Of a DNA stretch of 30,649 nt, positions 19,761-30,649 are shown in pieces. The notes beneath the pieces are model-generated. The model searched no databases and was not told the origin of the DNA. It saw only the letters and a list, made by a program, of their open reading frames with translations. Each line of letters opens with the position of its first letter. Within the stretch, counting starts at the first letter, position 1. Origin of the DNA: a virus (taxonomy: Duplodnaviria > Heunggongvirae > Uroviricota > Caudoviricetes); the IMG/VR virus record IMGVR_UViG_2802429244_000003; one strand, given 5' to 3'. A program made the translations under genes and the position numbers.

Positions 19761-20183
19761 TCAGCCTGACAGCTCTGACGAACGTCTGATACAACGCCCT
19801 GCATGAATGGCATCGGAATAATCCAGAAAGGCATAGCATCGTGCCCACAAGAATCTGTGTAAGTGTCCTGTTTCTTCCATCCCCGCACAGGACTGGCGAG
19901 CATGAGGGGCAAACCCGCGAACCATAAACGCGCTAAAAACCCTGTGTGCATCGTTTTTGATTATTCCCGCACACTCGCGCAGAAGGAGTTCCCCGTCGGG
20001 CTACGGTCTCTGTTAATGGGGGAATACGGCGACGATACGGCGCACAGAAATAGATCAGAAATCTATTGCCCACAATCCACATAAAGGCAATACATTGCAT
20101 GAGCACAGGTAATCGCCTATGCTCATGTATTGGCATTCTTTTGCCGCCGGCGAATCTTCAGCGGATTATCCTTGGCCGGTTTT

Positions 20184-20648
20184 TTATCTGAGGCATTGCT
20201 CGCTAATATATAGCTGTGCCCCCTCCAGTTGTTTTTGCATCAATATCAGCCGCTCTCTGAGGGTGAAATAATCCCGTTCAGCGGTGTCTGCCAGTCGGGG
20301 GGAGGCTGCATTATCCACGCCGGAGGCGGTGGTGGCTTCACGCACTGACTGACAGACTGCTTTGATGTGCAACCGACGACGACCAGCGGCAACATCATCA
20401 CGCAGAGCATCATTTTCAGCTTTCGCATCAGCTAACTCCTTCGTGTATTTAGCATCGAGTGCATCAGCAGCACGCTGGCGCTGCTGCATGTCAGTAATGG
20501 TGGCGGTCACCTGCTTCAGCTCACTGACTTTTTTATCACGCTGTTCTTTGTAGGCGATGGCGTTATCACGGTAATGATTAACAGCCCATGACAGGCAGAC
20601 GATGATGCAGATAGCCAGAGCATAAATAATCGCGGCAACTCTGCTCAC
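20184..20648 (-). CDS. Rz: Spanin inner membrane subunit Rz (i-spanin)
   Basis: From the GTG start reads [39 protein letters not shown]..., nearly identical to lambda Rz as recalled; GTG overlaps the endolysin stop as GTGA. Confidence 0.9.
20246..20428 (-). CDS. Rz1: Spanin outer membrane lipoprotein Rz1 (o-spanin), embedded in the +1 frame of Rz
   Basis: [60 protein letters not shown]: lipobox VVGC, proline-rich, nearly identical to lambda Rz1 as recalled. Confidence 0.9.
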
Positions 20649-21178
20649 TGCTCTATCCCCCAACAGGCTAATACGCTTTCCTGGTCACGACGAATAACCT
20701 GACCGTAACAATTATTTGAACGAATGCGGCAATCACGTCCACCGTCCTTTATCCACCAGCGAATCGCCTCGCATGCGCCTTTACGATCACCGGCATTCAG
20801 CCGCTTATAAAACGTCGACGGAAAACACTTACCGGGGCCAATGTTATAGGGACAGAATGACGCGATACCGGCTTTCTGTGGCTCGGTCAGTGGAACTTTT
20901 ATATTGCGCTCCACCCATGCCAGCGCCTTATCCCGCTCAATGGCGTTAACCTGGGCGCATTTTTCCTTCGACAGTTTCATTCCCGGAATAACAGGTTTAC
21001 CGTCCACCATCGTTGCTCCCCGACAGATGGTCCATATGCCGGAGCCATCGCGGTATGCAGTGGTGTGATTCCCCTCTTTTTCATCCAGAAACTGATCGAG
21101 AATGTCAGGGGCAGGAGCACTGGCGGCAATCAGAGCCAGAACAGCAGCCGACAGGCTGTATCTGATTTTTACGTTCAT
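20645..21178 (-). CDS. R: Endolysin, T4-lysozyme-type muramidase with a hydrophobic Gly/Ala-rich N-terminus (likely SAR endolysin)
   Basis: 177 aa; catalytic triad pattern E...D...T in [16 protein letters not shown]; N-terminal [24 protein letters not shown]; follows a pinholin-type holin. Confidence 0.85.
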
Positions 21179-21291
21179 GGATATTTATCAGGATTTATCG
21201 GCTTCAAATCCCCGGATATGTTAAATCTTACCTCGCCAGTGATGGGCACTGGCGGGAGGAGGATGTCAATCTGATAAACACAGAGGTGACT

Positions 21292-21552
21292 ATGGATTAC
21301 ACAAATCTACCAAAACAAACTTTTGCTGATTTAATCGCACTCAGGCAAGCAGTCGTAGCTCTAATCAACTTGTTGCCGGAGAAGGAAAAGGAATTAGTTA
21401 AAGCGCTTCTTAACAGAACTGCCGCCGATTTTTCATCATATCCACTGACAGATGACCTTGCGGACCTTCCTGAATTAATTGCAGCGTCCGCCATTAAGCT
21501 TACTGAAGAGATTTACCCTCCTCAAAAATCTTCACAAAATTCCTGCGAGTAA
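21292..21552 (+). CDS. Hypothetical acidic 86-aa protein, oriented opposite to the late operon inside the lysis cassette
   Basis: GAGG Shine-Dalgarno 5 nt upstream of the ATG; followed by a strong intrinsic terminator; no recognisable motif. Confidence 0.45.
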   Translation: MDYTNLPKQTFADLIALRQAVVALINLLPEKEKELVKALLNRTAADFSSYPLTDDLADLPELIAASAIKLTEEIYPPQKSSQNSCE

Positions 21553-22051
21553 CTTCAATGCAATAATCGTAAAACGCCGCAAACTGCTCATCGCGGCGTT
21601 TTTTTTCATCTTCAGAAGGAATAAGCACCGACAATTTTTTATTCAGATCAGCGACGCTGCCCTCCAGTTTTTCAATGAGCGATTCAATATCATCTTTTTC
21701 TGACCGCAATGCCGTCGGTGGCGTCTTCAGAGAACCAGTAATTCTTCCCGGTAGCTTTCCTTTGTAGGTTATCCACACATTCTGCGCCTCTAAAATTATG
21801 GGGCGCTTTTCCGGCGACTGCTCATCCCCTTCACATAACCCGGCAGCAACATCCAGGAATACCTGTCTGATTCTCATTCTGGCTGCTGCCTCATAAAACT
21901 CCAGTGCAGCACCTTCAACACGATCCATAGTGATATCCAGCTCAAAAATCTCACCGTCAAAGCGTTCTTTGTCCTGTAAGGCTAAAGTTACCGTAACTTT
22001 ATGCTCAAAATTACGGACTCCTTTCACAACCAGTTCATAGTCTTGAGTCAT
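21500..22051 (-). CDS. Hypothetical soluble acidic 183-aa protein inserted between holin and endolysin
   Basis: AGGAGA Shine-Dalgarno; start 5 nt after the holin stop; no transmembrane segment or catalytic motif seen; position is analogous to the ydfR-type gene that sits between holin and lysozyme in some E. coli prophages, but the family is not recognised. Confidence 0.55.
   Translation of the reverse strand: MTQDYELVVKGVRNFEHKVTVTLALQDKERFDGEIFELDITMDRVEGAALEFYEAAARMRIRQVFLDVAAGLCEGDEQSPEKRPIILEAQNVWITYKGKLPGRITGSLKTPPTALRSEKDDIESLIEKLEGSVADLNKKLSVLIPSEDEKKRRDEQFAAFYDYCIEVTRRNFVKIFEEGKSLQ
21573..21606 (+). terminator. Strong rho-independent terminator on the plus strand (GC stem followed by T8)
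   Basis: AACGCCGC, loop, GCGGCGTT, then TTTTTTTT; 20 nt after the 86-aa ORF stop; lies inside the 3' coding sequence of the minus-strand 183-aa ORF. Confidence 0.6.
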
Positions 22052-22055
22052 TGGA

Positions 22056-22271
22056 TTACTCTCCTCTCGCAGCCTTACGCCTGTCTTCTTTAATCTTGAA
22101 ATAAAGATTTGTCAGATACGTCAGCAGGCCAAAAACCAGGCTACCCAGCACACCGATTGCAGCCCACTGTGACGGAGTTACTTTATCGAGTAACTGCAAT
22201 GCCCAGAAACCAGCATTACCCGCCGATGTGCCATAGGCAACACCTGTTGTTAACTTATCCATTGATTTCAT
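22056..22271 (-). CDS. S: Holin, phage-21 S-type pinholin with dual-start motif
   Basis: [71 protein letters not shown] matches phage 21 S pinholin as recalled; Met1 and Met4 give the antiholin/holin dual start. Confidence 0.85.
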
Positions 22272-22490
22272 ATCCTCACCCCGATGTACACGGATGGTGC
22301 AATATGTTTGAAAATATCGGAGTCTACGGGGTAGTTTTTACAGCACACGTTGTTCTCAACGGCGCTAAAAAAACATACACATTAAAAATGTGGTTAATTA
22401 TTTTGAAAGAAAATCATATATTAATTAATAATACGAGAAATGTTTTCATATTTAGTGTACTGTATACGGCCATTTATACAGGAAAAGCCT

Positions 22491-22661
22491 ATGTCAGAAC
22501 GTAAAGACTCAAAATCACGCCGTAATTATCTCGTTAAATGTTCCTGCCCAAACTGCACCCAAGAGTCAGAACACAGTTTTTCAAGAGTACAAAAAGGTGC
22601 CCTTTTGATCTGCCCTCATTGCAACAAAGTATTCCAGACAAATCTTAAAGCTGTAGCCTGA
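22491..22661 (+). CDS. Candidate small zinc-ribbon protein (56 aa; CxxC, 17 residues, CxxC)
   Basis: MSERKDSKSRRNYLVKCSCPNCTQESEHSFSRVQKGALLICPHCNKVFQTNLKAVA; AGGA 7 nt upstream; hairpin terminator about 60 nt downstream; possible TTGAAA / TAATAA promoter elements upstream. Confidence 0.4.
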   Translation: MSERKDSKSRRNYLVKCSCPNCTQESEHSFSRVQKGALLICPHCNKVFQTNLKAVA

Positions 22662-22718
22662 TTGATTTTATTCGCAACAAGTATTTTTTATATTTTAATA
22701 ATATATTTAAAGCAGATA

Positions 22719-22745
22719 ATAAAAAACCCGCCTGAGCGGGTTTAA
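22719..22745. terminator. Bidirectional hairpin terminator, stronger on the minus strand (T6 tail)
   Basis: AAAAAACCCGC, CTGA loop, GCGGGTTT; on the minus strand the stem is followed by TTTTTTATT; lies between cspB and the holin. Confidence 0.6.
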
Positions 22746-23024
22746 TATTGTGGTGCTTTTTGTGAGAGTCATCCACTTACGCACTTTGTTTTGCTATGCC
22801 AGCAGTTAGCTTCTGCTGTAAAACTATTCATGCAGCAAACCTGCACTTCACCACAATGGTTAGCATACTTTTCCTGATTAAGTTATTACCAAATATGCTG
22901 GCCATTGTTTCATGTATTGGACCGCCTTACTCTTTATTAAAGAGATCCAATATTCACCACTCTGTCTGTATCTCCACTCAGGCATCAGCCTTCTTCGTTA
23001 TCGTATACAGACAAACTATGAATT

Positions 23025-23240
23025 TTAATCATTAATGATGACATTTGCTGCTGCAGGACCTTTAGCACCACTCTCTACAGAGAAGGTAACCTTTTGACCT
23101 TCAAATAAGGTTCGATAATTATCATTCTGAATCGCAGAAAAATGCACAAACACATCTTTACTACCATCAACAGGAGAAATAAAGCCAAAACCTTTATCAG
23201 CGTTAAACCATTTTACTAAACCAGTCATTTTATTTGACAT
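23025..23240 (-). CDS. cspB: Cold shock protein, CspA family (CspB-like)
   Basis: [67 protein letters not shown]: cold-shock domain with the RNP1 motif KGFGFI; long 5' UTR region upstream. Confidence 0.9.
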
Positions 23241-23539
23241 TCTACATTCCTTAACTTGAGCCTTTCGGCATAAATGGTTTGTATAACAGAAACGACTTCG
23301 TACTTAATTGGAGAGACTCAAAGAAGGAATAAGTGAATAACACCTGAAATGAGAACTGCTTTAGTAAACTACTTCGTATATCGTCTGTTCTTCAAACCGA
23401 CGCAATCATTAACGCATAGTTGAACATATGAAGCAATGTTTATTTTAGACATCCAGCCATCTTCAACCCCATCAAAAAACTATAGCTTTCTTCAGGAACG
23501 TGTGTATAGTGCGCCAAGTTATCAGTATTAAGGAATTTT

Positions 23540-23752
23540 TTGTCCCGTAAAATGACAGGAATTGTCAAAACCTTTGACTACAAAAGCGGCAAAGGTCTTA
23601 TCATACCATCCGATGGCCGTATCGATGTCCAGCTGCACGTTTCTGCTCTCAATCTCCGCGATGCAGAAGAAATTACCACAGGATTACGCGTGGAATTTTG
23701 CCGAATCAATGGTCTACGTGGACCTTCAGCTGCCAATGTTTATCTTTCATGA
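23540..23752 (+). CDS. cspF: Divergent cold-shock-domain protein (CspF/CspH-like, lacking the canonical RNP motifs)
   Basis: (M)[69 protein letters not shown]; the track start is a TTG with AGGA 5 nt upstream; an in-frame ATG lies 12 nt downstream. Confidence 0.85.
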
Positions 23753-23806
23753 GCTATATTAAAGCTTTTACTTTAAGCCCCATCGGATCACACATGGAGA
23801 GTTTTT

Positions 23807-23896
23807 ATGAATAACCCCGTCTGCCTTGATGACTGGTTGATTGGCTTTAAAAGCTTATGCTGTACTTTGGCCGTAATAGCTCTGCTAATAATATAA
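23807..23896 (+). CDS. Candidate 29-aa hydrophobic peptide (type-I-toxin-like small membrane protein)
   Basis: [29 protein letters not shown]; GGAGAG Shine-Dalgarno 5 nt upstream of the ATG; below the ORF-track size cutoff; found by manual reading. Confidence 0.3.
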
Positions 23897-24044
23897 TAAG
23901 CAGACTCATTGTGTTTAGGGACATTGTACTGGAAGAAAACATTTTAAACATCAGGCAAATAACTAAGTCACCAGCTAAATAATAAGTTAACAGACATGGG
24001 TCCCGGGATGAGGTTCAACATCACCATTGCCCCATTTAAAGCAC

Positions 24045-24080
24045 AAAACCCGCTCATCAGCGGGTTTTCTAATTTCTTTC
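24045..24080 (+). terminator. Hairpin terminator downstream of cspF and the small peptide ORF
   Basis: AACCCGC, TCATCA loop, GCGGGTT, then TTCTAATTTCTTT. Confidence 0.5.
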
Positions 24081-24358
24081 TAAACATCAGATATACAAAG
24101 CCCATCATTGAGGGAATCTTATCCATATTTTTTGAAAAATGCAAGCATCACGTTGCCATCTTCATTGAAAAACCTTTATCGTGTTACTTTTATCAATTGC
24201 ACTTCAGCATAGAGTTATCCCAGGCAGCACTTTAAAGACTTCTACATTACACACACCTTGTCTCCCCTTCTCGTCATATCTGCAAGACCGATATGCATGA
24301 CGCAGTACATACGCTGAACTGCTTTATCCATCAGCATATTCTAGTGCTAAAGCGACTT

Positions 24359-24386
24359 CAGTAGCAGAAGCAAAATTCTGCTACTG
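24359..24386. repeat. Perfect 11-bp inverted repeat, CAGTAGCAGAA and TTCTGCTACTG separated by a 6-nt spacer
   Basis: Read directly from the sequence; about 140 bp upstream of the DUF883-like gene; no T-tract on either side, so it is unlikely to be an intrinsic terminator. Confidence 0.5.
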
Positions 24387-24523
24387 TGCCAAACAGGAGT
24401 AAACGTCATTTTATGTAATGTTGATTGAGTGGTCATAGTATCACCTCAATAACAGCTCTTCGCCCTATCATTGAAAGCATATCTGCTATAATTAAAAAGC
24501 CACTTAACATCAGGACTTCAAAC

Positions 24524-24709
24524 ATGACTTCAAATCAATCTGAAAACGAAATAGTTAATACTGTCAAAAAATATGCATCATGTGCTGACGATGCTTTGCA
24601 GGCAGGCAAAGAAAACGTTAAAGATAAATTTAGAAATTATCCACTGACTAGCGTGGTGGTCGCTCTAAGCATAGGGTTAACGCTTGGTTTTATTATTGGC
24701 AGAAAATAA
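24524..24709 (+). CDS. Small C-terminally membrane-anchored protein, DUF883-like (ElaB/YqjD/YgaM family)
   Basis: MTSNQSENEIVNTVKKYASCADDALQAGKENVKDKFRNYPLTSVVVALSIGLTLGFIIGRK; the C-terminal single transmembrane segment ending in basic residues is typical of the family; AGGA upstream. The track ORF would extend to a TTG at 24425. Confidence 0.55.
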   Translation: MTSNQSENEIVNTVKKYASCADDALQAGKENVKDKFRNYPLTSVVVALSIGLTLGFIIGRK

Positions 24710-24766
24710 TCTTAAGCCTCCCATAAGTCGTACACAATCACATCTACCAATTAATGTTCCATTAGT

Positions 24767-24794
24767 AAAAAACCACCTCCTGTGGAGGTGGTTT
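24767..24794. terminator. Bidirectional hairpin terminator (CCACCTCC, TGT loop, GGAGGTGG), T6 on the minus strand
   Basis: A-tract and T-tract flank an 8-bp GC-rich stem; ends the plus-strand DUF883-like gene and the minus-strand small ORFs. Confidence 0.6.
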
Positions 24795-24845
24795 AAGGAT
24801 AGCAACAAAACACAACCTACTTTAAACGGCTATATTCTGCTATAT

Positions 24846-24965
24846 CTAAATAATAGGTTCTCTTTTATCATCCGGTGAAAAAGGGTTCAATGGTTGCCCC
24901 TCATCAGGACGCTCAACGGGCTCATCATCAGGCTTACGGTCATCAAAATCTGGATGTTCTGACAT
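24846..24965 (-). CDS. Candidate small hydrophilic protein (39 aa, acidic, proline-rich)
   Basis: MSEHPDFDDRKPDDEPVERPDEGQPLNPFSPDDKREPII; G-rich sequence upstream (GGGTGG) but only 3 nt from the ATG; followed by a terminator about 55 nt downstream; below the ORF-track cutoff. Confidence 0.3.
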   Translation of the reverse strand: MSEHPDFDDRKPDDEPVERPDEGQPLNPFSPDDKREPII

Positions 24966-25000
24966 ATTCCACCCTAGTATTTTTATGCAGGAAAGATTAT

Positions 25001-25108
25001 TTACTCTTTCCGGTTGTCTTTTTTATTATCCTTACCCTTACTATCCTCATTGTTTTTATTCCTGTCATGAGATTTTTCATTTGAATCACTTACATATAAT
25101 GTATTCAT
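25001..25108 (-). CDS. Candidate small hydrophilic protein (35 aa, lysine- and asparagine-rich)
   Basis: MNTLYVSDSNEKSHDRNKNNEDSKGKDNKKDNRKE; GGAG 5 nt upstream of the ATG; in tandem with the 39-aa ORF. Confidence 0.3.
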   Translation of the reverse strand: MNTLYVSDSNEKSHDRNKNNEDSKGKDNKKDNRKE

Positions 25109-25707
25109 GGGGACTCCAGTTTTTTAACAGCACAATGCTGTATCTGTAATTATAGATGCAATTAATCATTATGGTATGTATGTTTCATGCACAAATCAGA
25201 AACGCATCTAGTGCTTTAATTAATATGGATTTTATTGCTGTAGATTTACAAAAATTTTCATAATTAACCAGCAATATAAGACAAATATCTCATAACATGA
25301 GGGAAATCAAGCTCATTTAAAGCAATTTATAATTTTCATCCTACTATTTTCCCTACACTGCCAACACCAGTTTCGTCGCAACACTCTGACAAGACACCTA
25401 TAAAATCAGTTTCGTTATCACCTTAATTTTCTTCATGGGTAACAAACCGGTAATACATCGATAGCCTGATTGATGCACGTTACTGTTACCTCTTCCCTGC
25501 ATCAGGATGGCTTCCCAAGATGATATGGTTAATCACACTGGAACATTCACGCATAACCGTTTCCTTCATATCCTGCCGTTTTAGCATGTCTTTTCCCCTT
25601 CTTGTTAATATCAATGACTAACACAAATCTAAAAAAGCCAGCAATGTAAAAAAACTGCATTCACGGCAACCAGAATGGTTACCGTTCTGCACAAAGTTTA
25701 TGTCCAC

Positions 25708-25727
25708 AAAAAAACCACTCTGCGCGG
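25708..25727 (-). terminator. Candidate tR'-like terminator about 110 nt downstream of Q
   Basis: On the minus strand a short GC stem (CCGCGCAGAGTGG) is followed by TTTTTTT; position is analogous to lambda tR', where Q-dependent antitermination acts. Confidence 0.35.
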
Positions 25728-25837
25728 CTTATTGATATTTTCCACCGGTATGCATATAAGGCTCATCATTGGAAAACTCTTTGCACGTTTCCTTAGAAAA
25801 TACAATCGTTATGTCGCCATCGTTCGGTGAAAATCTT

Positions 25838-26590
25838 TTATCTTGTCACTTTTCTCAGTTGTGCTTCTGCATACGCTTCTTCCTGCCAGCACTTTGTTAC
25901 CAGTTTATCAATGACGTCCGCATACCCCTTGTACCACTGATAATCTGTCAGGTCCGGTACCAACTTCTGGACATGACGTCGTGCCAGTGTGGTCGGTAAA
26001 CGACTAAACCTGTTTCCATTACAACGCCCACAAATCTTATAAACCGGTACGCCATGAAGCCGGGTTCTTTTTTCATCCAGGACAATACCTTTACCCTTAC
26101 ACCCTCTGCACGCTGTGCTGACTTCGCCCTTACCATGGCAATGCTGACATAGTTCCTTCCCCCATTCTTCCTTGATAACAGATTCCCCACTTCTGTAGTG
26201 TTTCACCACTTCGCGCAATACATTATGAAATCCCGTACCTGCACAATGTTCACAGCGAGCCTTACTTGCCGCAGACCTGGAATAATCAGCAAAGGCAAAA
26301 TTCACAAGGTAAGGGATGATCTGTAACCGGGTTTCTTCACTCAATTTGTTCAATATCGGGTTATCCAGTGCCATCGCGTAATTGAGCAGACCTTCAATCG
26401 CAAACTGAGGGTCCTGAACACCAACTTTTGCCAGGAATAAGGCAAACCCAAGCGGTGCTTTCGACTGCACCATCCCCTGCGCAGCCATCACATCCGTAAT
26501 TGCTAAACCACCTGAGTCTGTCGCCGGTGCGTCATCGCTCAATTTTGGAGGTTTTGGGGAGTAATATTTTGGTAAGGCTTCAAGGTTCAT
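25838..26590 (-). CDS. Q: Late gene antiterminator Q (zinc-binding)
   Basis: 250 aa from MNLEALPKYY...; contains CEHCAGTG...CQHCHGKG...CRGCKGKG...CGRCNG Cys motifs; GGAGA Shine-Dalgarno; located upstream of the lysis cassette as quuQ is in the Qin prophage. Confidence 0.8.
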   Translation of the reverse strand: MNLEALPKYYSPKPPKLSDDAPATDSGGLAITDVMAAQGMVQSKAPLGFALFLAKVGVQDPQFAIEGLLNYAMALDNPILNKLSEETRLQIIPYLVNFAFADYSRSAASKARCEHCAGTGFHNVLREVVKHYRSGESVIKEEWGKELCQHCHGKGEVSTACRGCKGKGIVLDEKRTRLHGVPVYKICGRCNGNRFSRLPTTLARRHVQKLVPDLTDYQWYKGYADVIDKLVTKCWQEEAYAEAQLRKVTR

Positions 26591-26603
26591 GCTCGTTCTC
26601 CAC

Positions 26604-27653
26604 TTACGCCAATACGCCAATTGCCAGCGCACGATCGATAAAACGAAATATCAGCTCCAGCTGGGAGCCATACTTCTTTTCAAATGCCACGGTATCCGCA
26701 TGCAGCTCGTCGTGATGCTTTCTGCACAAAGGCAACACAAAGAGGTCATGCGCTTTTGTACCCATTCCGCCCTGACCATGACCAATCAGGTGATGGGGAT
26801 CGTCAGCTGGCTTACCACAACACGCACACGGCTGTGTCTTCACCCAGCGCGTGTATTTCTCATTTACCCAGCGGCGACGTTTAGGTCGCTTCATGAAAGA
26901 TTCCGGAGACTCCGGATCAACGGCAATGCTGACCTCCGTCTTTTCCTGTGGTGGGTTCTGTTGCTGGTGGGCGTGAGGCGGTAGCACAATATTTTTTGTG
27001 CGCTGCTTCAGTATACTGGTGGCTGTCTGCTCTCCCGGTATGATGTCACTCTCGCGGTAAAGCGAGCGGATTTTTTCAGCACGTAACCCCAGAGAACGAC
27101 GTAATACTGCCTCCGGTAGCGCGTCCGCTACCTGATTGCAGACCGCCCACCAGGATAATTCAGCCAGCGATAATTCCCGCTCCTGCGTGCCATTCATTGC
27201 ATGGCGTATGACGTCAATCATCCATGCTGACAGGTTTTGATGAGCAAGTTGCCCGAGTGATTCGGATGTCTGGTCACGCAGCTGGTTGTCGCAGTGCCAG
27301 CACAACACCATCGCGCCGGTACCGTAACGATGTATGACGATTTCACTGTGATGATAGTCACCATGAGGCCACTGGCAGGATTTGACATGACGCAACAGCC
27401 AGTCAGACAGTGCACCAGCGCCGCCAGCAGCACGAATCACCCGCTCATCGCTGAAAAATGGCAGTAATGATTTATCCTCCGCCAGCGGCTGGCGAACTGC
27501 AGGGACGACTCCGGATGGCAGGCCGCACATGCTTTTTGGTTCCGGCTCCACCAGCACGCGAGGATTATGAAATACCCGCATGGATTCACGGCCCGGTTTT
27601 AGCACCACCAGCCCAAGTTCCGGTACCGGAACAGGTCGAAGTAATACCCGCAC
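26604..27653 (-). CDS. DUF968-domain protein (ydfU-like; Cys/His-rich C-terminus)
   Basis: 349 aa; C-terminal CACCGKPADDPHHLIGHGQGGMGTKAHDLFVLPLCRKHHDELH; immediately upstream of Q, as ydfU is in Qin. Family assignment is from memory. Confidence 0.7.
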   Translation of the reverse strand: MRVLLRPVPVPELGLVVLKPGRESMRVFHNPRVLVEPEPKSMCGLPSGVVPAVRQPLAEDKSLLPFFSDERVIRAAGGAGALSDWLLRHVKSCQWPHGDYHHSEIVIHRYGTGAMVLCWHCDNQLRDQTSESLGQLAHQNLSAWMIDVIRHAMNGTQERELSLAELSWWAVCNQVADALPEAVLRRSLGLRAEKIRSLYRESDIIPGEQTATSILKQRTKNIVLPPHAHQQQNPPQEKTEVSIAVDPESPESFMKRPKRRRWVNEKYTRWVKTQPCACCGKPADDPHHLIGHGQGGMGTKAHDLFVLPLCRKHHDELHADTVAFEKKYGSQLELIFRFIDRALAIGVLA

Positions 27654-27654
27654 G

Positions 27655-27933
27655 TTACCTCCAGATGCGTTGCTGGAATGTGCGGGACGGACGCGGTGGG
27701 CGTTCGGAATAAGGGAGTCTGACGTAGATTATCCAGAGACGATAATCGAGGCTGAGGGCTTTCCTAAACTCATACCCACGTCTGCGGTAGTTCTGAATTA
27801 GCCACTCTGCCTGTTCTTCAGTGCATGGATCATGCTGGAACCAGTCAGATTTGAATGCGTGCGAATGCCGCCCGTGCCTGCTGGCAAAGACGGCGAGATT
27901 ATCAGAATTGTGTGATCTGGAATTTTGCGCCAT
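27655..27933 (-). CDS. Hypothetical protein (92 aa), in the position occupied by rem in the Qin prophage
   Basis: GGAG Shine-Dalgarno 7 nt upstream; stop abuts the start of the DUF968 gene; no recognisable motif. Confidence 0.4.
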   Translation of the reverse strand: MAQNSRSHNSDNLAVFASRHGRHSHAFKSDWFQHDPCTEEQAEWLIQNYRRRGYEFRKALSLDYRLWIIYVRLPYSERPPRPSRTFQQRIWR

Positions 27934-27999
27934 CGGCTTTCTCCGGTGGCACAGTGTTACTCAACAGGGGTTCAGCCCTGCGCTGAATTGTAGATGAAT

Positions 28000-28260
28000 T
28001 CACTCATCTTCAAAAGCAGAAAAACCAGCCTTAATCCCAGCTTCTTTCAGAGACGGCAACGATGTGACAAATTCATTTGCACGCAAAATAAAACCATCCG
28101 TCACAAGCCCATCCACCAAATGAATTAACGCAGCTCCACTCTTCCTTTGTTGAGACTGTAAACATTTAATACGGCAGTGGCTGACAATAGCGCCATTCTC
28201 AACGCGCACAGTATAGAGGCCATCTTCACTAAAAATTTCACGTAATTCTTCGATTTTCAT
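28000..28260 (-). CDS. Hypothetical protein (86 aa)
   Basis: MKIEELREIFSEDGLYTVRVENGAIVSHCRIKC...; AAGGA upstream of the ATG; lies between the hok terminator and the rem-like gene. Confidence 0.4.
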   Translation of the reverse strand: MKIEELREIFSEDGLYTVRVENGAIVSHCRIKCLQSQQRKSGAALIHLVDGLVTDGFILRANEFVTSLPSLKEAGIKAGFSAFEDE

Positions 28261-28380
28261 CAACAGAATCCTTCCAGATAAATAGCACTCCCCTGTTTGG
28301 GGTCCATCCCTCTTCTCCCTGCGCGCTACTTAAGTATTTTTGATTCTATTCCGGCACCGTCCAGAACTTCAAACGCGTTG

Positions 28381-28411
28381 AAAATAAAAACAAAAACCCG
28401 CCGAAGCGGGT
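28381..28411 (-). terminator. Rho-independent terminator of the hok/mok transcript
   Basis: On the minus strand: AACCCGC, TTCG loop, GCGGGTT, then TTTTGTTTTTATTTT; about 70 nt downstream of the hok stop. Confidence 0.6.
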
Positions 28412-28480
28412 TAAGTGCGGGTGCGTTGAGGATGCCTGACACATCAGAGGTGGCGAGGGATTTCTCCCCCGCCTGGTCTC

Positions 28481-28636
28481 TTACTCCTCAGGTTCGTAAG
28501 CTGTGAAGACAGCGACCTCCGTCTGGCCGGTTCGGATTCGTACCTCGCAGAGGTCTTTCCTCGTTACCAGTGCCGTCACTATGACGGTTAAACAGATGAC
28601 GATCAGGGCGATTAACATCGCCTTTTGCTGCTTCAT
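28481..28636 (-). CDS. hok: Hok-family type I toxin (small membrane-depolarising peptide)
   Basis: MKQQKAMLIALIVICLTVIVTALVTRKDLCEVRIRTGQTEVAVFTAYEPEE, matching the Hok/Gef family (HokD-like) as recalled. Confidence 0.9.
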   Translation of the reverse strand: MKQQKAMLIALIVICLTVIVTALVTRKDLCEVRIRTGQTEVAVFTAYEPEE

Positions 28637-28693
28637 AGCCTGCTTCTCCTTGACCTTTCGGTCCGTAAGAGGCAATCTATATGTGACGAGCAT
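28481..28693 (-). CDS. mok: mok, the in-frame upstream reading frame whose translation is coupled to hok
   Basis: 70-codon ORF sharing the hok stop, with a 19-codon N-terminal extension (MLVTYRLPLTDRKVKEKQA) and GAGG upstream; the leader resembles the plasmid R1 hok leader (...CCUCUUAC...CAAGGAGAAG...AUGAA) as recalled. Confidence 0.6.
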   Translation of the reverse strand: MLVTYRLPLTDRKVKEKQAMKQQKAMLIALIVICLTVIVTALVTRKDLCEVRIRTGQTEVAVFTAYEPEE

Positions 28694-28760
28694 ATAGGGG
28701 CCTCACTTCGATTTATAGTCGGGTGGGGCTTTTATCTATCTGCCGTTGGTGTTCATGCCC
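28650..28760 (+). ncRNA. sok: Predicted location of a Sok-like antisense RNA; exact ends not determined
   Basis: Inference from hok/sok architecture: the antisense RNA should be transcribed opposite the mok translation-initiation region. A TTGACC -35-like hexamer sits at 28650..28655, but no convincing -10 element or terminator was found. Confidence 0.25.
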
Positions 28761-28789
28761 GAGGCAGATAGCCTCAAGCACCCGCAGCA

Positions 28790-28817
28790 ATTCTACTTAA
28801 CTCTCCTTTTCCCGCAA
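28790..28817 (-). promoter_or_regulatory. Candidate sigma-70 promoter for the hok/mok mRNA (-35 TTGCGG, 16-nt spacer, -10 TAGAAT)
   Basis: Read on the minus strand about 95 nt upstream of the mok start; the predicted transcript 5' end would lie near a GCUUGAGGC motif resembling the 5' end of R1 hok mRNA as recalled. Confidence 0.45.
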
Positions 28818-28904
28818 ACCGTTTTTATCCCCATCGGCAAATCGAATGCACCACCAGCGCCACCGCCATCGCAATTCCTACCGTAGTGAATGCCTCAGGT
28901 CAGG

Positions 28905-29474
28905 TCATTGATTCACCTCCTGCGGTGGTTCCGGTAGCGGCATCCAGTGAGTTGCTTGCTCAATACCATTACCCGGCTTAATCGTTGCATCTCCGCGCCG
29001 AAAGGTGCTTCCGGTATAGCATGCGGAGCATATTAGCGGTTCAACCAGAGAGCTATCGAAATTCACCGAAATAAGCACGTTCTGGCCCTTTTCAGGCATT
29101 CGATCACTACAGCTTATCCAACTATCCGGAGTTCCCGGAGAGTTGCCATTTACATCGAAGTTTGGCTCTGCGTCCTGAACCAGGAGGATGTAACCATTCT
29201 TGGCTGTATCAAGTTCTAACGCCTCGGTGACGGTGCCGAAATAGCGATTACCTAAATCAGCATCACAAGTGCTTACATCAATGGAAACCTCCATGCCTTC
29301 GATTAATTCTGGCAAGTTGTAAGTTTGGCTTACAGGCTCGGCTTCCAGCGATGTCAGTGCAATTTTGAATAACTCACCCTCTACTCGTGCTACCCCTGAA
29401 TTGGGATGGCATTTCGCAATCGCTATTTTTAATTTGGCTTCTTCGATTAATTGCTCTTTGGTTAATTCAGTCAT
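28905..29474 (-). CDS. DUF551-domain protein
   Basis: 189 aa with C-terminal ...ATHWMPLPEPPQEV, the W-x-P-L-P-E-P-P signature I associate with DUF551 prophage proteins. Confidence 0.65.
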   Translation of the reverse strand: MTELTKEQLIEEAKLKIAIAKCHPNSGVARVEGELFKIALTSLEAEPVSQTYNLPELIEGMEVSIDVSTCDADLGNRYFGTVTEALELDTAKNGYILLVQDAEPNFDVNGNSPGTPDSWISCSDRMPEKGQNVLISVNFDSSLVEPLICSACYTGSTFRRGDATIKPGNGIEQATHWMPLPEPPQEVNQ

Positions 29475-29483
29475 TTTTCATTA

Positions 29484-29505
29484 CCGCCCTTTCGGGCGGC
29501 CTCCT
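29484..29505 (-). promoter_or_regulatory. Structured translation-initiation region: AGGAGG, then a 6-bp GC stem with GAAA tetraloop, then 9 nt, then the ATG of the DUF551 gene
   Basis: Minus-strand AGGAGG CCGCCC GAAA GGGCGG TAATGAAAA ATG; the only strong Shine-Dalgarno is 31 nt from the start codon unless the hairpin folds. Confidence 0.4.
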
Positions 29506-29576
29506 GATGATTTGAGGGTGCAGAAATCCCTCCGGTTAAGGATTAAATTTTATTTACAGAACTGAATTTAATTATT

Positions 29577-29592
29577 CAGATATACGTATCTG
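29577..29592. repeat. Perfect 16-bp palindrome CAGATATACGTATCTG
   Basis: Self-complementary as read; lies in the AT-rich 146-bp spacer between the methyltransferase stop and the DUF551 start. Confidence 0.5.
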
Positions 29593-29620
29593 TAACCTTA
29601 CGAACCTACTCACTGGATGC

Positions 29621-30094
29621 CTATTTCATAAAAATAATCCAGTGGGTTTTATCGTTTTTTTCTGTTCGTTGACCGATAACAGGTTTTCTGTCGGTCAGTA
29701 CCAATATCTGGCGAACAGGTATTTGCGTTTCATTCCATTTAAAAATCAGAGCGCCGTATGGACGCAACACACGAAAGGCTTCTTTAAATCCCTGCCGCAA
29801 ATCATCACGCCAGGTATCTTTATTCAGCCGTCCATATTTCTTTCCCATCCAGGCGTTATCACCAACACGCTCAAGATGCGGAGGGTCGAATATAACCATC
29901 GAAAAAGATGCGTCTGCAAATGGTAGTGCACGAAAATCAGCTATCAGATCAGGACTGATAATCAGGCGTCGTCCATCACACAATGTGTGCTCTTCCTTTC
30001 TGATATCGCTAAATATCGCCCGGTCGTCATTCTTATCGAACCAGAACATGCGACTGCCACAGCACATATCAAGAATGGTTGCCGGTGCACTCAC
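29621..30094 (-). CDS. Small putative SAM-dependent DNA methyltransferase (orphan; DPPH motif)
   Basis: 157 aa; ILDMCCGSRMFWF (motif-I-like Gly-rich SAM site) and VIFDPPHLERVGDNAWMG (a DPP[Y/F/W/H]-type catalytic motif of amino-methyltransferases); start overlaps the upstream stop as ATGA. Confidence 0.55.
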   Translation of the reverse strand: MSAPATILDMCCGSRMFWFDKNDDRAIFSDIRKEEHTLCDGRRLIISPDLIADFRALPFADASFSMVIFDPPHLERVGDNAWMGKKYGRLNKDTWRDDLRQGFKEAFRVLRPYGALIFKWNETQIPVRQILVLTDRKPVIGQRTEKNDKTHWIIFMK

Positions 30095-30513
30095 TGCGCT
30101 ACCTCCTGAAAATTACCCTGATAGAAAGCCAGTACACGCTGCATAGCTTCGCTCTTCCGGCACTCGCGACAGATTATATTCAGGCGCCTGTCGTAGCGGC
30201 GTATTTCTCCGTCTGGTAATGACCAGATAAGGTCAGGATCAACCACAACCGTTTTTTTCACCTTTGCCCTGGATAATTTTTTGCGGGCGTTTTGCCAATC
30301 CTTACGGGCCTGTTCAGACGGAAATAACCCGTAACCAGAGTTGTATACATCGCCACTGGCAACCAGCTCTCTGGCGAGAACGCTCATCAGATATCTTGTC
30401 GCACCTGTCTTGGCTTCCAGTTGCCGTAACGTCTCGCGCCCACTCCGGCGTACCAGCTCAACAACCTGCCCTTTAATTTTTTCCCGCTCTTCTTGTGTAA
30501 ATACTTTTGCCAT
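30091..30513 (-). CDS. Hypothetical nin-region protein (141 aa)
   Basis: From MAKVFTQEEREKIKGQVVELVRRSGRETLRQLEAKTGATRY...; GGAGG 5 nt upstream; contains a C-terminal CRECRK; translationally coupled to the methyltransferase gene. Confidence 0.5.
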   Translation of the reverse strand: MAKVFTQEEREKIKGQVVELVRRSGRETLRQLEAKTGATRYLMSVLARELVASGDVYNSGYGLFPSEQARKDWQNARKKLSRAKVKKTVVVDPDLIWSLPDGEIRRYDRRLNIICRECRKSEAMQRVLAFYQGNFQEVAQ

Positions 30514-30528
30514 AAGCGCCTCCGGCAA

Positions 30529-30649
30529 TCACTTTTCCGATACAACACGGCGGGAAGAATCAGTAATCTGTCGAACAATATCCCGGTGCTTGTTCAGCTC
30601 CCGCAGCGCGGCGCAGACACGCTCCCACTTCTGGACATGATTTTTCGCC
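30529..30649 (-). CDS. 3' end of a hypothetical gene that continues past the right edge of the window
   Basis: Open minus-strand frame from the window edge reading ...AKNHVQKWERVCAALRELNKHRDIVRQITDSSRRVVSEK, with its stop 5 nt before the Shine-Dalgarno of the next gene. Confidence 0.35.
   Translation of the reverse strand, partial: AKNHVQKWERVCAALRELNKHRDIVRQITDSSRRVVSEK

What the first reader, a model, noticed from the sequence alone, without database searches (positions are those of the whole stretch)
28381..28820. Complete hok/mok-type type I toxin locus in the nin-like region, without the relBE genes that accompany hokD in Qin
The Hok peptide is unmistakable. It sits inside a 70-codon in-frame mok frame, with a candidate promoter (TTGCGG, 16 nt, TAGAAT) about 95 nt upstream and an intrinsic terminator downstream, and the leader resembles the R1 hok leader. 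In the K-12 Qin prophage hokD lies downstream of relBE; here the upstream neighbour is a DUF551 gene. The Sok antisense RNA could not be located with confidence, so it is open whether this copy is regulated or decayed.
Basis: partly seen in the sequence, partly recalled or inferred. Interest (0 to 1): 0.5.

Follow-up and report, generated by a model that had tools for sequence, protein, structure and literature searches.

The report
Intact hok/mok/sok toxin–antitoxin locus
This is an ordinary, apparently complete copy of the well-known hok/sok small-toxin/antisense-RNA module sitting in a Qin-like lambdoid prophage; it is the untruncated form of the E. coli K-12 hokD gene and is found in about four in ten complete E. 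coli genomes.

Summary
On the minus strand at 28386-28817 lies a complete hok/mok/sok type I toxin-antitoxin locus. Its 51-codon hok is 156/156 nt identical to K-12 hokD, and it sits inside a 70-codon in-frame mok.

Aligned to the annotated sokC (K-12) and sokW (933W), a 54-nt Sok gene lies on the plus strand at 28685-28738. It has a promoter (TTGACC, 17 nt, CAATCT), a free 5' tail and a terminator hairpin.

The predicted 396-nt hok mRNA has every R1-type regulatory pairing. These are tac/fbi end-pairing, mok-SD/ucb, the tac/ucb plus mok-SD/dcb switch after 3' trimming, and the metastable 5' hairpin. Compensatory changes in 51 distinct homologues support the long-range, metastable and local helices.

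K-12 hokD is the derived form. [quoted passage not shown] Every relBE-linked copy found is truncated within about 11 nt of that point (mRNA positions 134-145), and no full-length copy has relBE.

The locus is 100% identical to IMG/VR prophage contigs and to PPompW. It is 86% identical to hokW-sokW, which has been characterised experimentally. PGAP routinely annotates it as hokD.

Verdict: already known, low interest. Expression and toxicity of this copy were not tested.

The parts
28812..28817 (-). hok/mok promoter -35 (TTGCGG)
   Evidence: Read from the sequence. Identical in 933W hokW and E. coli M19. Only 3/6 to consensus, so the generic scan did not call it.
28790..28795 (-). hok/mok promoter -10 (TAGAAT), 16-nt spacer, 6 nt before +1
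   Evidence: Aligns with the TATAAT of K-12 hokC.
28388..28783 (-). Predicted full-length hok mRNA (about 396 nt; +1 = 28783, the first position of the Rfam model)
   Evidence: RF01794 hit begins at 28783. MFE -166.3 kcal/mol, z -7.1. On 51 homologues, 87.5% of cells are paired against 40-44% for slid controls, and 47 pairs change on both sides.
28772..28783 (-). tac element (GGGUGCUUGAGG), the 5' end of the mRNA
   Evidence: Pairs with fbi in the full-length fold and with ucb in the 3'-trimmed fold. Entropy 0.2 bit.
28755..28781 (-). Metastable 5' hairpin (mRNA 3-13 with 19-29) that holds tac in the nascent transcript
   Evidence: -18.8 kcal/mol, z -4.5. 96.6% paired in 51 homologues, with compensatory changes at 4/28 and 12/20.
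28723..28731 (-). ucb, the mok anti-SD (AAGCCCCAC)
   Evidence: Pairs with mok SD 78-84 in the full-length fold and with tac 1-8 in the trimmed fold.
28701..28704 (-). mok Shine-Dalgarno (GAGG), 7 nt before the mok AUG
   Evidence: Conserved.
28481..28693 (-). mok, a 70-codon leader ORF in frame with hok
   Evidence: The ATG is nearly invariant (entropy 0.09). The frame and length of mok vary among homologues (in frame in 31/51), so what is conserved is translation up to the hok start, not the Mok peptide.
28677..28697 (-). Sok target hairpin around the mok start codon (CUAUAUG-CUCGUCA-CAUAUAG). The loop carries a YUNR-like CUCG and is complementary to the Sok 5' end.
   Evidence: Folds. Loop positions are hypervariable among homologues.
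28669..28673 (-). dcb (GCCUC). Pairs with mok SD after 3' trimming and overlaps the sok -10 on the other strand.
   Evidence: Entropy 0.03 bit.
28646..28651 (-). hok Shine-Dalgarno (AAGGAG), partly sequestered by CCUCUU
   Evidence: The hok start region 144-151 pairs with 278-285 in both folds.
28481..28636 (-). hok (51 aa), 156/156 nt identical to K-12 hokD
28495..28498 (-). UACG at Tyr47, a TadA-type A-to-I editing motif (Tyr to Cys recoding)
   Evidence: The codon is TAC followed by G in 47/51 homologues and TGC in 4/51. K-12 hokD mRNA is reported as 6% edited (PMC12214031). Not tested for this copy.
28452..28473 (-). 3' stem-loop expected to cap the processed mRNA
   Evidence: Helices 17/18 are 98% paired, with GC/AU exchanges. 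The role is inferred from R1 (PMC9841398).
28419..28431 (-). fbi element (CCUCAACGCACCC)
   Evidence: Pairs with tac 1-12. Helix 91% paired, 4 pairs with changes on both sides.
28386..28412 (-). Intrinsic terminator of hok mRNA
   Evidence: 7-bp stem, 5 GC pairs, T run.
28650..28678 (+). sok promoter: TTGACC (28650-28655), 17 nt, CAATCT (28673-28678)
   Evidence: Same layout as K-12 sokC (TTGACC, 17 nt, CACTCT). -35 and -10 are conserved in 51 homologues. The -10 matches only 2/6 of TATAAT but keeps the A at position 2 and the T at position 6.
28685..28738 (+). Sok antisense RNA (about 54 nt): single-stranded 5' tail GACGAGCAU..., hairpin, U run
   Evidence: Ends mapped by alignment to annotated sokC (K-12) and sokW (933W). 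Fold -21.4 kcal/mol, z -4.6. The complementary helix shows Watson-Crick covariation at 4 pairs (helix 4).

Best explanation
The locus is a complete, R1-type hok/mok/sok type I toxin-antitoxin module in the nin region of a Qin-like lambdoid prophage. It is the untruncated form of K-12 hokD and a close relative of hokW-sokW.

The mechanism below is inferred from R1; the RNA pairings are predicted here from sequence and supported by covariation.

1. A weak constitutive promoter makes a stable 396-nt mRNA.
2. While the mRNA is being made, a 5' hairpin holds the tac element.
3. In the finished mRNA, the 5' end (tac) pairs with the 3' fbi element and the mok SD is masked by ucb. The mRNA is therefore neither translated nor bound by Sok.
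4. Slow 3' trimming removes fbi. tac then captures ucb, the mok SD moves onto dcb, and the hairpin at the mok start becomes available.
5. The short-lived 54-nt Sok RNA, made from the opposite strand, pairs its free 5' end with that loop and the duplex is destroyed.
6. If Sok supply stops, ribosomes translate mok into the hok start region and the 51-aa membrane toxin is made.

The likely biological role is prophage addiction, phage exclusion, or help with lysis on induction, as shown for hokW-sokW. Which of these applies here is not shown.
For: Identity and family:
- Pfam HOK_GEF E 2.9e-23.
- Rfam RF01794 103.9 bits.
- hok CDS identical to K-12 hokD.

RNA structure:
- Full-length fold has tac/fbi and mok-SD/ucb, z -7.1.
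- The trimmed fold switches to tac/ucb and mok-SD/dcb.
- Metastable hairpin.
- On 51 distinct homologues from Escherichia, Kluyvera, Citrobacter, Pantoea and Photorhabdus, 87.5% of cells are paired against 40-44% for slid controls, and 47 pairs change on both sides. The metastable hairpin is 96.6% paired.

Sok:
- Mapped to annotated sokC and sokW.
- Folds as a tail plus terminator hairpin.
- Promoter layout conserved.
- Functional elements have 0.03-0.4 bit entropy, against 1.2-1.35 bit in loops.

Occurrence and literature:
- The mRNA is 100% identical to IMG/VR contigs and PPompW.
- Full-length copies occur in 2234 of 5426 complete E. coli genomes.
- hokW-sokW is experimentally a type I TA system (PMC8621323).
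- The R1 mechanism is described in PMC9841398.
- The HokD CDS is reported as toxic on overexpression (bioRxiv 10.1101/2025.08.07.668861).
Against: - There are no expression, processing or toxicity data for this copy.
- Both promoters are weak by consensus: hok -35 matches 3/6 and sok -10 matches 2/6. The generic scan found neither.
[quoted passage not shown] An intact sequence therefore does not prove an addiction function.
- tac/ucb could not be tested by covariation because both sides are nearly invariant.
- The structure tested by covariation was derived from the window's own fold, which favours it over the slid controls.
Confidence: 0.9

Rival explanations
1. The copy is structurally intact but functionally silent: a hok/sok locus carried along in a mosaic prophage, with promoters too weak or regulation too tight ever to release Hok, as proposed for other chromosomal hok loci.
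For: - Weak promoter hexamers.
- Earlier reports that chromosomal hokA, hokB and hokC loci do not mediate post-segregational killing (bioRxiv 10.1101/2025.08.07.668861).
- HokD carries Tyr, not Cys, at the position whose Cys (DNA-encoded or made by editing) is reported to matter in Hok homologues. K-12 hokD mRNA is only 6% edited (PMC12214031).
Against: - All regulatory elements are under visible constraint, with low entropy and compensatory changes.
- The allele is 100% identical in many independent prophage contigs.
- The 86%-identical hokW-sokW is active, and its loss halves phage release (PMC8621323).
Confidence: 0.25
2. It is a hokD-like remnant without a working sok, in which hok is expressed only as a passenger of the upstream early-right prophage transcript, analogous to relF in the relBEF operon.
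For: hok is co-oriented with all neighbouring nin-region genes, so read-through transcripts are plausible. K-12 hokD is such a passenger.
Against: - The whole 133-nt leader that K-12 lacks is present here.
- The sok promoter, tail and hairpin align with annotated sokC and sokW.
- The locus has its own promoter and terminator.
- Truncation is seen only in relBE-linked copies.
Confidence: 0.04

Closest known systems
hokW-mokW-sokW of phage 933W / Sakai prophage Sp5 (Plunkett 1999 annotation; Takada et al. 2021, PMC8621323)
   Same: - 86% nucleotide identity over 375 nt.
- Identical promoter and first 49 nt of the leader.
- In-frame 70-codon mok and a 51-aa Hok.
- Same tac, ucb, dcb and fbi elements.
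- Antisense Sok starting at the equivalent base.
   Different: - The Sok body is 54 nt here against 71 nt as annotated for sokW (about 76 nt over the equivalent alignment span), because of a 21-nt indel in the hairpin.
- The Sok 5' tail is GACGAG here against GUUCAG.
- The sok promoter is TTGACC/CAATCT here against TTGCCT/TAACCT.
- The Hok C-terminus is ...FTAYEPEE here against ...FVDYESEK.
- The 933W copy lies after the large late-region ORF L0134 near the end of the phage map, not in the nin region, and it lacks the hairpin terminator seen here.
hokD (relF) of the E. coli K-12 Qin prophage
   Same: The hok CDS is 156/156 nt identical. The hok SD, 3' UTR, fbi and terminator are the same, and so are the downstream neighbours (rem-like, DUF968/ydfU, Q antiterminator).
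   Different: K-12 lacks everything upstream of mRNA position 134: promoter, tac, ucb, mok start, Sok target and the sok gene. relE-relB takes their place, and the window has none of relBE.
hokC-mokC-sokC (gef) of E. coli K-12
   Same: In-frame mok with a similar leader peptide (MLNTCRVPLTDRKVKEKRA against MLVTYRLPLTDRKVKEKQA). Same sok promoter layout (TTGACC, 17 nt, CA(C/A)TCT). Short Sok (59 nt annotated).
   Different: About 78% nucleotide identity. It sits in a core-chromosome location, and the K-12 copy has IS186 abutting the 3' side.
hok/mok/sok (parB) of plasmid R1
   Same: Same family by Pfam and Rfam. Conserved blocks at tac, ucb, GCCUCUUAC (dcb), the hok SD and UACGAA. The predicted conformational switch is the same.
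   Different: Too diverged for blastn. In R1, mok is reported only as overlapping hok; that it lies in a different frame is my own recollection, not checked here. The R1-type leader is longer, and the R1 locus is plasmid-borne with a proven post-segregational killing function.

Membership tests
[quoted passage not shown] | Hok/Gef-type small membrane toxin ORF (about 50 aa, PF01848) | tested here: met
   HOK_GEF E 2.9e-23, full-length profile match. Identical to K-12 HokD.
[quoted passage not shown] | Overlapping mok leader ORF, with its own SD, that starts upstream of hok and reads into the hok start region | tested here: met
   70-codon ATG ORF 28481-28693, with GAGG 7 nt upstream. The ATG is conserved in 50 of 51 homologues. 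Translational coupling itself was not tested.
[quoted passage not shown] | cis-encoded antisense Sok RNA gene opposite the mok translation initiation region, with its own promoter and terminator hairpin | tested here: met
   28685-28738 (+) aligns with annotated sokC and sokW. Hairpin z -4.6. Promoter layout conserved. Transcription was not tested.
[quoted passage not shown] | Long-range tac/fbi 5'-3' end pairing in the full-length mRNA | tested here: met
   The MFE pairs 1-12 with 353-365. 91% paired, with 4 pairs changed on both sides in 51 homologues.
[quoted passage not shown] | Alternative pairings: mok SD/ucb (closed form), and tac/ucb plus mok SD/dcb (open form, after 3' trimming) | tested here: met
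   Predicted folds of the 396-nt and 344-nt forms switch exactly in this way. The mok SD/ucb helix covaries (helix 4). tac/ucb is invariant, so it is uninformative.
[quoted passage not shown] | Metastable 5' hairpin that sequesters tac in the nascent transcript | tested here: met
   (-18.8 kcal/mol). (96.6% paired, compensatory changes at 2-3 pairs).
[quoted passage not shown] | Match to the curated RNA family of the hok leader/sok region (Rfam RF01794) | tested here: met
   103.9 bits against a gathering score of 59, full model 1-157.
[quoted passage not shown] | 3' exonucleolytic processing of hok mRNA, RNase III cleavage of the Sok duplex, and differential RNA stability | not testable with these tools
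   Needs northern blots or rifampicin chase experiments.
[quoted passage not shown] | Toxicity of Hok and its neutralisation by Sok | not tested
   Literature only. The HokD CDS is toxic on overexpression. hokW is neutralised by sokW.
K-12-type hokD (relBEF operon arrangement) | hok placed directly downstream of relB-relE, with the leader, mok and sok missing | tested here: not met
   The window has the full leader and no relBE. Homology to Qin ends at 28650. The PGAP name 'hokD' for such copies reflects the peptide only.

The most novel reading that the evidence does not exclude
The five or so bases of Sok's free 5' end, and with them the loop of its target hairpin (mok codons 2-3), are hypervariable between otherwise highly conserved loci. 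There are 25 different 8-mers in 51 sequence clusters, and co-resident copies within single genomes differ.

This would fit diversifying selection that keeps each prophage's hok/sok pair orthogonal, so that one prophage's Sok cannot rescue loss of another. Combined with the position of hok inside the early-right operon, read-through transcription at induction could override Sok and make Hok a timed lysis helper.
Probability: 0.3. Interest if true: 0.35.

Novelty: already known. Interest (0 to 1): 0.1.

Why it matters
It matters little for discovery. The locus is a textbook module, already annotated in thousands of genomes as hokD, gef or mokW.

Three points are useful for annotation:
- Copies labelled 'hokD' by PGAP are usually the intact, sok-bearing form. 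K-12 hokD is a relBE-truncated derivative.
- sok is generally left unannotated.
- The Rfam 'sok' model reports the hok-sense strand, which can mislead strand assignment.

Tried and rejected
- **Generic promoter scan.** It found neither the hok nor the sok promoter, because both fall below its 9/12 threshold. Homology to annotated loci was used instead.
- **tRNA scan of the window.** Nothing found, unlike the Q-downstream tRNAs of the closest E. coli hit.
- **blastn against plasmids.** It reaches P1-like phage-plasmid copies at 81% identity but not R1-type hok. The R1 comparison therefore rests on Pfam, Rfam and a pairwise alignment with an IncFII hok fetched by protein search.
- **Local hairpin around the UACG editing site (third sequence).** Not more stable than shuffles (z +0.56), so a tRNA-Arg-like stem could not be supported.
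- **Remnant-without-sok reading.** Rejected.
- **Source of the window.** No complete E. coli genome covers more than 76% of 20000-30649, so the prophage is a mosaic. This was not pursued.
- **Searches not run.** Large protein-database searches and structure prediction were skipped, because the peptide is identical to a characterised protein.

Full report
**Observation.** Every gene in this part of the window runs on the minus strand. The ORF list shows a 70-codon ATG ORF at 28481-28693 (-). Its last 51 codons, from the ATG at 28636, read MKQQKAMLIALIVICLTVIVTALVTRKDLCEVRIRTGQTEVAVFTAYEPEE. Pfam HOK_GEF matches it over the whole profile (E 2.9e-23). The hok CDS is 156/156 nt identical to K-12 hokD.
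- TTGCGG at 28817-28812;
- a 16-nt spacer;
- TAGAAT at 28795-28790, followed 6 nt later by GGGUGCUUGAGG at 28783.

The generic scan does not list this promoter because the -35 is only 3/6. It does find the terminator at 28412-28395 with its T run. The upstream neighbour, 28905-29474, is a DUF551 protein. The downstream genes are a rem-like ORF, a 92-aa ORF, a DUF968 (ydfU-like) gene and a Q antiterminator.

**What it is.** Rfam RF01794 ('sok') matches 28634-28783 over its full length (103.9 bits, E 8e-23).
- The hit is on the hok strand. Its first position is the predicted mRNA 5' end and its last three positions are the hok AUG.
- The same orientation is seen for K-12 hokC, where the annotated sokC is on the opposite strand, for 933W hokW, and for an R1-type IncFII hok.
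- The model therefore describes the hok leader, which contains the Sok complement, rather than Sok itself.

**Where sok is.** Alignment of the plus strand with K-12 sokC (annotated ncRNA) and 933W sokW (annotated misc_RNA) places the Sok start at 28685 and its end at about 28738.
- Upstream lie TTGACC (28650-28655), a 17-nt spacer and CAATCT (28673-28678). This is the same layout as sokC (TTGACC, 17 nt, CACTCT), and the -35 and -10 are conserved in 51 homologues.
- The 54-nt RNA folds into a free 5' tail of 9-13 nt, a long hairpin and a U run (-21.4 kcal/mol, z -4.6).
A sok gene is present and looks intact.

**How it most likely works.** The mechanism is taken from R1 as summarised in PMC9841398. 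The pairings below are predicted here from the sequence.
- *Full-length mRNA.* The 396-nt mRNA folds with z -7.1. Its 5' end (tac, 1-12) pairs with 353-365 (fbi). The mok SD (GAGG 80-83) is masked by ucb (55-61). The hok start region (144-151) pairs with 278-285.
- *After 3' trimming.* Removing the last 52 nt, which mimics 3' processing, makes the predicted fold switch to tac/ucb (1-8 with 53-59) and mok-SD/dcb (80-84 with 111-115).
- *Nascent transcript.* The first 34 nt form an alternative hairpin that occupies tac (-18.8 kcal/mol, z -4.5).
- *Sok target.* The hairpin at the mok start (87-107) exposes a loop complementary to the first six bases of Sok.

**Covariation support.** I collected 141 loci from IMG/VR and GTDB genomes and reduced the full-length mRNA segments found in them and in four annotated records to 51 sequence clusters at 97% identity; the alignment holds the window plus 50 homologues. 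They come from Escherichia, Kluyvera, Citrobacter, Pseudocitrobacter, Pantoea and Photorhabdus.
- On that alignment the window's structure is 87.5% paired, against 40-44% for slid controls. 47 pairs change on both sides, and 0 of 500 shuffles reach the observed values.
- The tac/fbi helix is 91% paired with four compensatory pairs. For example U4-A becomes C4-G in Photorhabdus.
- The same position 4 also covaries with position 28 in the metastable hairpin, which is 96.6% paired. This is the family's known signature of mutually exclusive structures.
- Functional elements have 0.03-0.4 bit entropy, while loops have 1.2-1.35 bit.
- Caveat: the tested structure came from the window's own fold, which favours it over slid controls. 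tac/ucb is invariant and so uninformative.

**Relation to K-12 hokD.** The window region 25754-28650 is collinear with Qin ydfT-ydfU-rem-hokD at 88% identity, and the homology stops at 28650, 14 nt upstream of the hok ATG. In K-12 the sequence beyond that point is the end of relE.
- The relBE-linked copies found are L004, L103, L104, L130 and L135, which start at mRNA position 134, and the Kluyvera copy L116, which starts at position 145.
- None of the 123 full-length copies has relBE upstream. Their upstream neighbours vary, whereas rem and ydfU downstream recur.
- The window therefore carries the common, untruncated form, and K-12 hokD is the derived one.

**How common it is.** The 601-bp region matches 4726 of 5426 complete E. 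coli genomes. In 2234 genomes at least 80% of it, leader included, is covered, with a median of 2 and up to 11 places per genome. PGAP annotates these copies as hokD. The mRNA is 100% identical to several IMG/VR prophage contigs and to PPompW, where the gene is annotated as 'gef, phage maintenance protein'. P1-like phage-plasmids carry an 81% identical copy.

**Closest characterised relative.** This is hokW-mokW-sokW of 933W/Sp5, at 86% identity. It has been shown to be a type I TA system that partly depends on RNase III and Hfq, and whose loss halves phage release after mitomycin C (PMC8621323). The differences here are:
- a shorter Sok hairpin (a 21-nt indel);
- a different Sok 5' tail;
- different promoter hexamers;
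- a different Hok C-terminus;
- a nin-region rather than a late-region location.

**Extra layer.** The Tyr47 codon is UAC followed by G, the TadA-type motif. It is TAC-G in 47 of 51 homologues and a DNA-encoded TGC (Cys) in the other four. K-12 hokD mRNA is reported as 6% edited at this site (PMC12214031). I could not support a local tRNA-like hairpin.

**Limits.** Nothing here shows transcription, processing, toxicity or biological role for this copy. Both promoters are weak by consensus. Earlier work, summarised in bioRxiv 10.1101/2025.08.07.668861, found that chromosomal hokA, hokB and hokC loci do not give post-segregational killing. So 'intact' is a statement about sequence.

**Verdict.** The finding is real and correctly interpreted, but it describes a known and very common module. 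Novelty: already known. Interest: low.

Noticed in passing
window 28685-28692 (+) / 28692-28699 (-); alignment A2: The first 5-6 bases of the predicted Sok RNA, which are also the loop of its target hairpin and mok codons 2-3, are hypervariable. There are 25 different 8-mers among 51 sequence clusters (entropy 1.2 bit), while the flanking mok AUG and dcb are nearly invariant. Co-resident copies in one genome (for example E. coli ECMA0423 and S. flexneri SFBU1023) carry different tails. This may be a specificity or anti-cross-talk determinant.
   Followed up: partly
window 28634-28783; L146 502-654; L148 182-353: Rfam RF01794, named 'sok antitoxin', is oriented along the hok mRNA leader. In K-12 it hits the strand of mokC/hokC, opposite to the annotated sokC. 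Strand calls taken from this family will place 'sok' on the wrong strand.
   Followed up: yes
window 28650; L004 about 3789; L103, L104, L130, L135, L116: The relBE-linked hok copies found (Escherichia, Shigella, Kluyvera) break at mRNA position 134, or 145 in the Kluyvera copy L116, and no full-length copy has relBE. This suggests one ancestral event in which relBE (with ydfV-flxA in K-12) replaced the leader and the sok gene.
   Followed up: partly
alignment A2 (51 homologues): The mok frame is not conserved. It is in frame with hok in 31 of 51 (as here). It is a 19-codon ORF stopping just upstream of the hok ATG in 10. It is a long ORF (55-68 codons) in another frame in 9, and one sequence has no mok start. 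Only the start codon and translation up to the hok start region are kept.
   Followed up: partly
window 28495-28498 (-): A UACG motif sits at Tyr47 of Hok, the TadA A-to-I editing context (Tyr to Cys). It is conserved in 47 of 51 homologues, and the remaining 4 encode Cys directly.
   Followed up: partly
window 22960-23401 (-): Full-length match to the cspA thermoregulator family (RF01766, 156 bits). This is a cspB-like cold-shock gene with its long 5' UTR, in a stretch (21846-24233) that is 95% identical to the essQ-cspB-cspF region of Qin.
   Followed up: partly
window 28343-28372 (-): A promoter-like site (TTGAAG, 18 nt, TAGAAT) lies directly after the hok terminator and about 80 nt upstream of the rem-like ORF (28000-28263). 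It may be a separate promoter for the downstream nin genes.
   Followed up: no
window 20000-30649: No complete E. coli genome covers more than 76% of this stretch (best 92.6% identity). The prophage is a mosaic of Qin-like lysis, csp, Q and ydfU modules with other nin genes (DUF977, a small methyltransferase, DUF551).
   Followed up: no
L090, L109, L113, L138, L144: E. coli-like hok loci (79-96% identity) appear on contigs labelled Veillonella parvula MAG, Xanthomonas pisi, Acinetobacter idrijaensis, 'Ca. Scatousia' and a Haemophilus MAG. Several of these contigs are very short (275-2995 bp), so contamination or mis-binning is likely.
   Followed up: no
L114 2369-2783 and 2887-3302; L118; L131: Tandem hok/sok loci lie a few hundred bases apart in Pseudocitrobacter faecalis and Photorhabdus, with different Sok tails in the two Pseudocitrobacter copies.
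   Followed up: no
plasmid hits H61-H83: Non-mobilizable plasmids of about 84-130 kb in E. coli, whose size and mobility class would fit P1-like phage-plasmids (not verified), carry an 81%-identical full-length copy annotated as hokD. The lineage therefore moves between lambdoid prophages and these plasmids.
   Followed up: no
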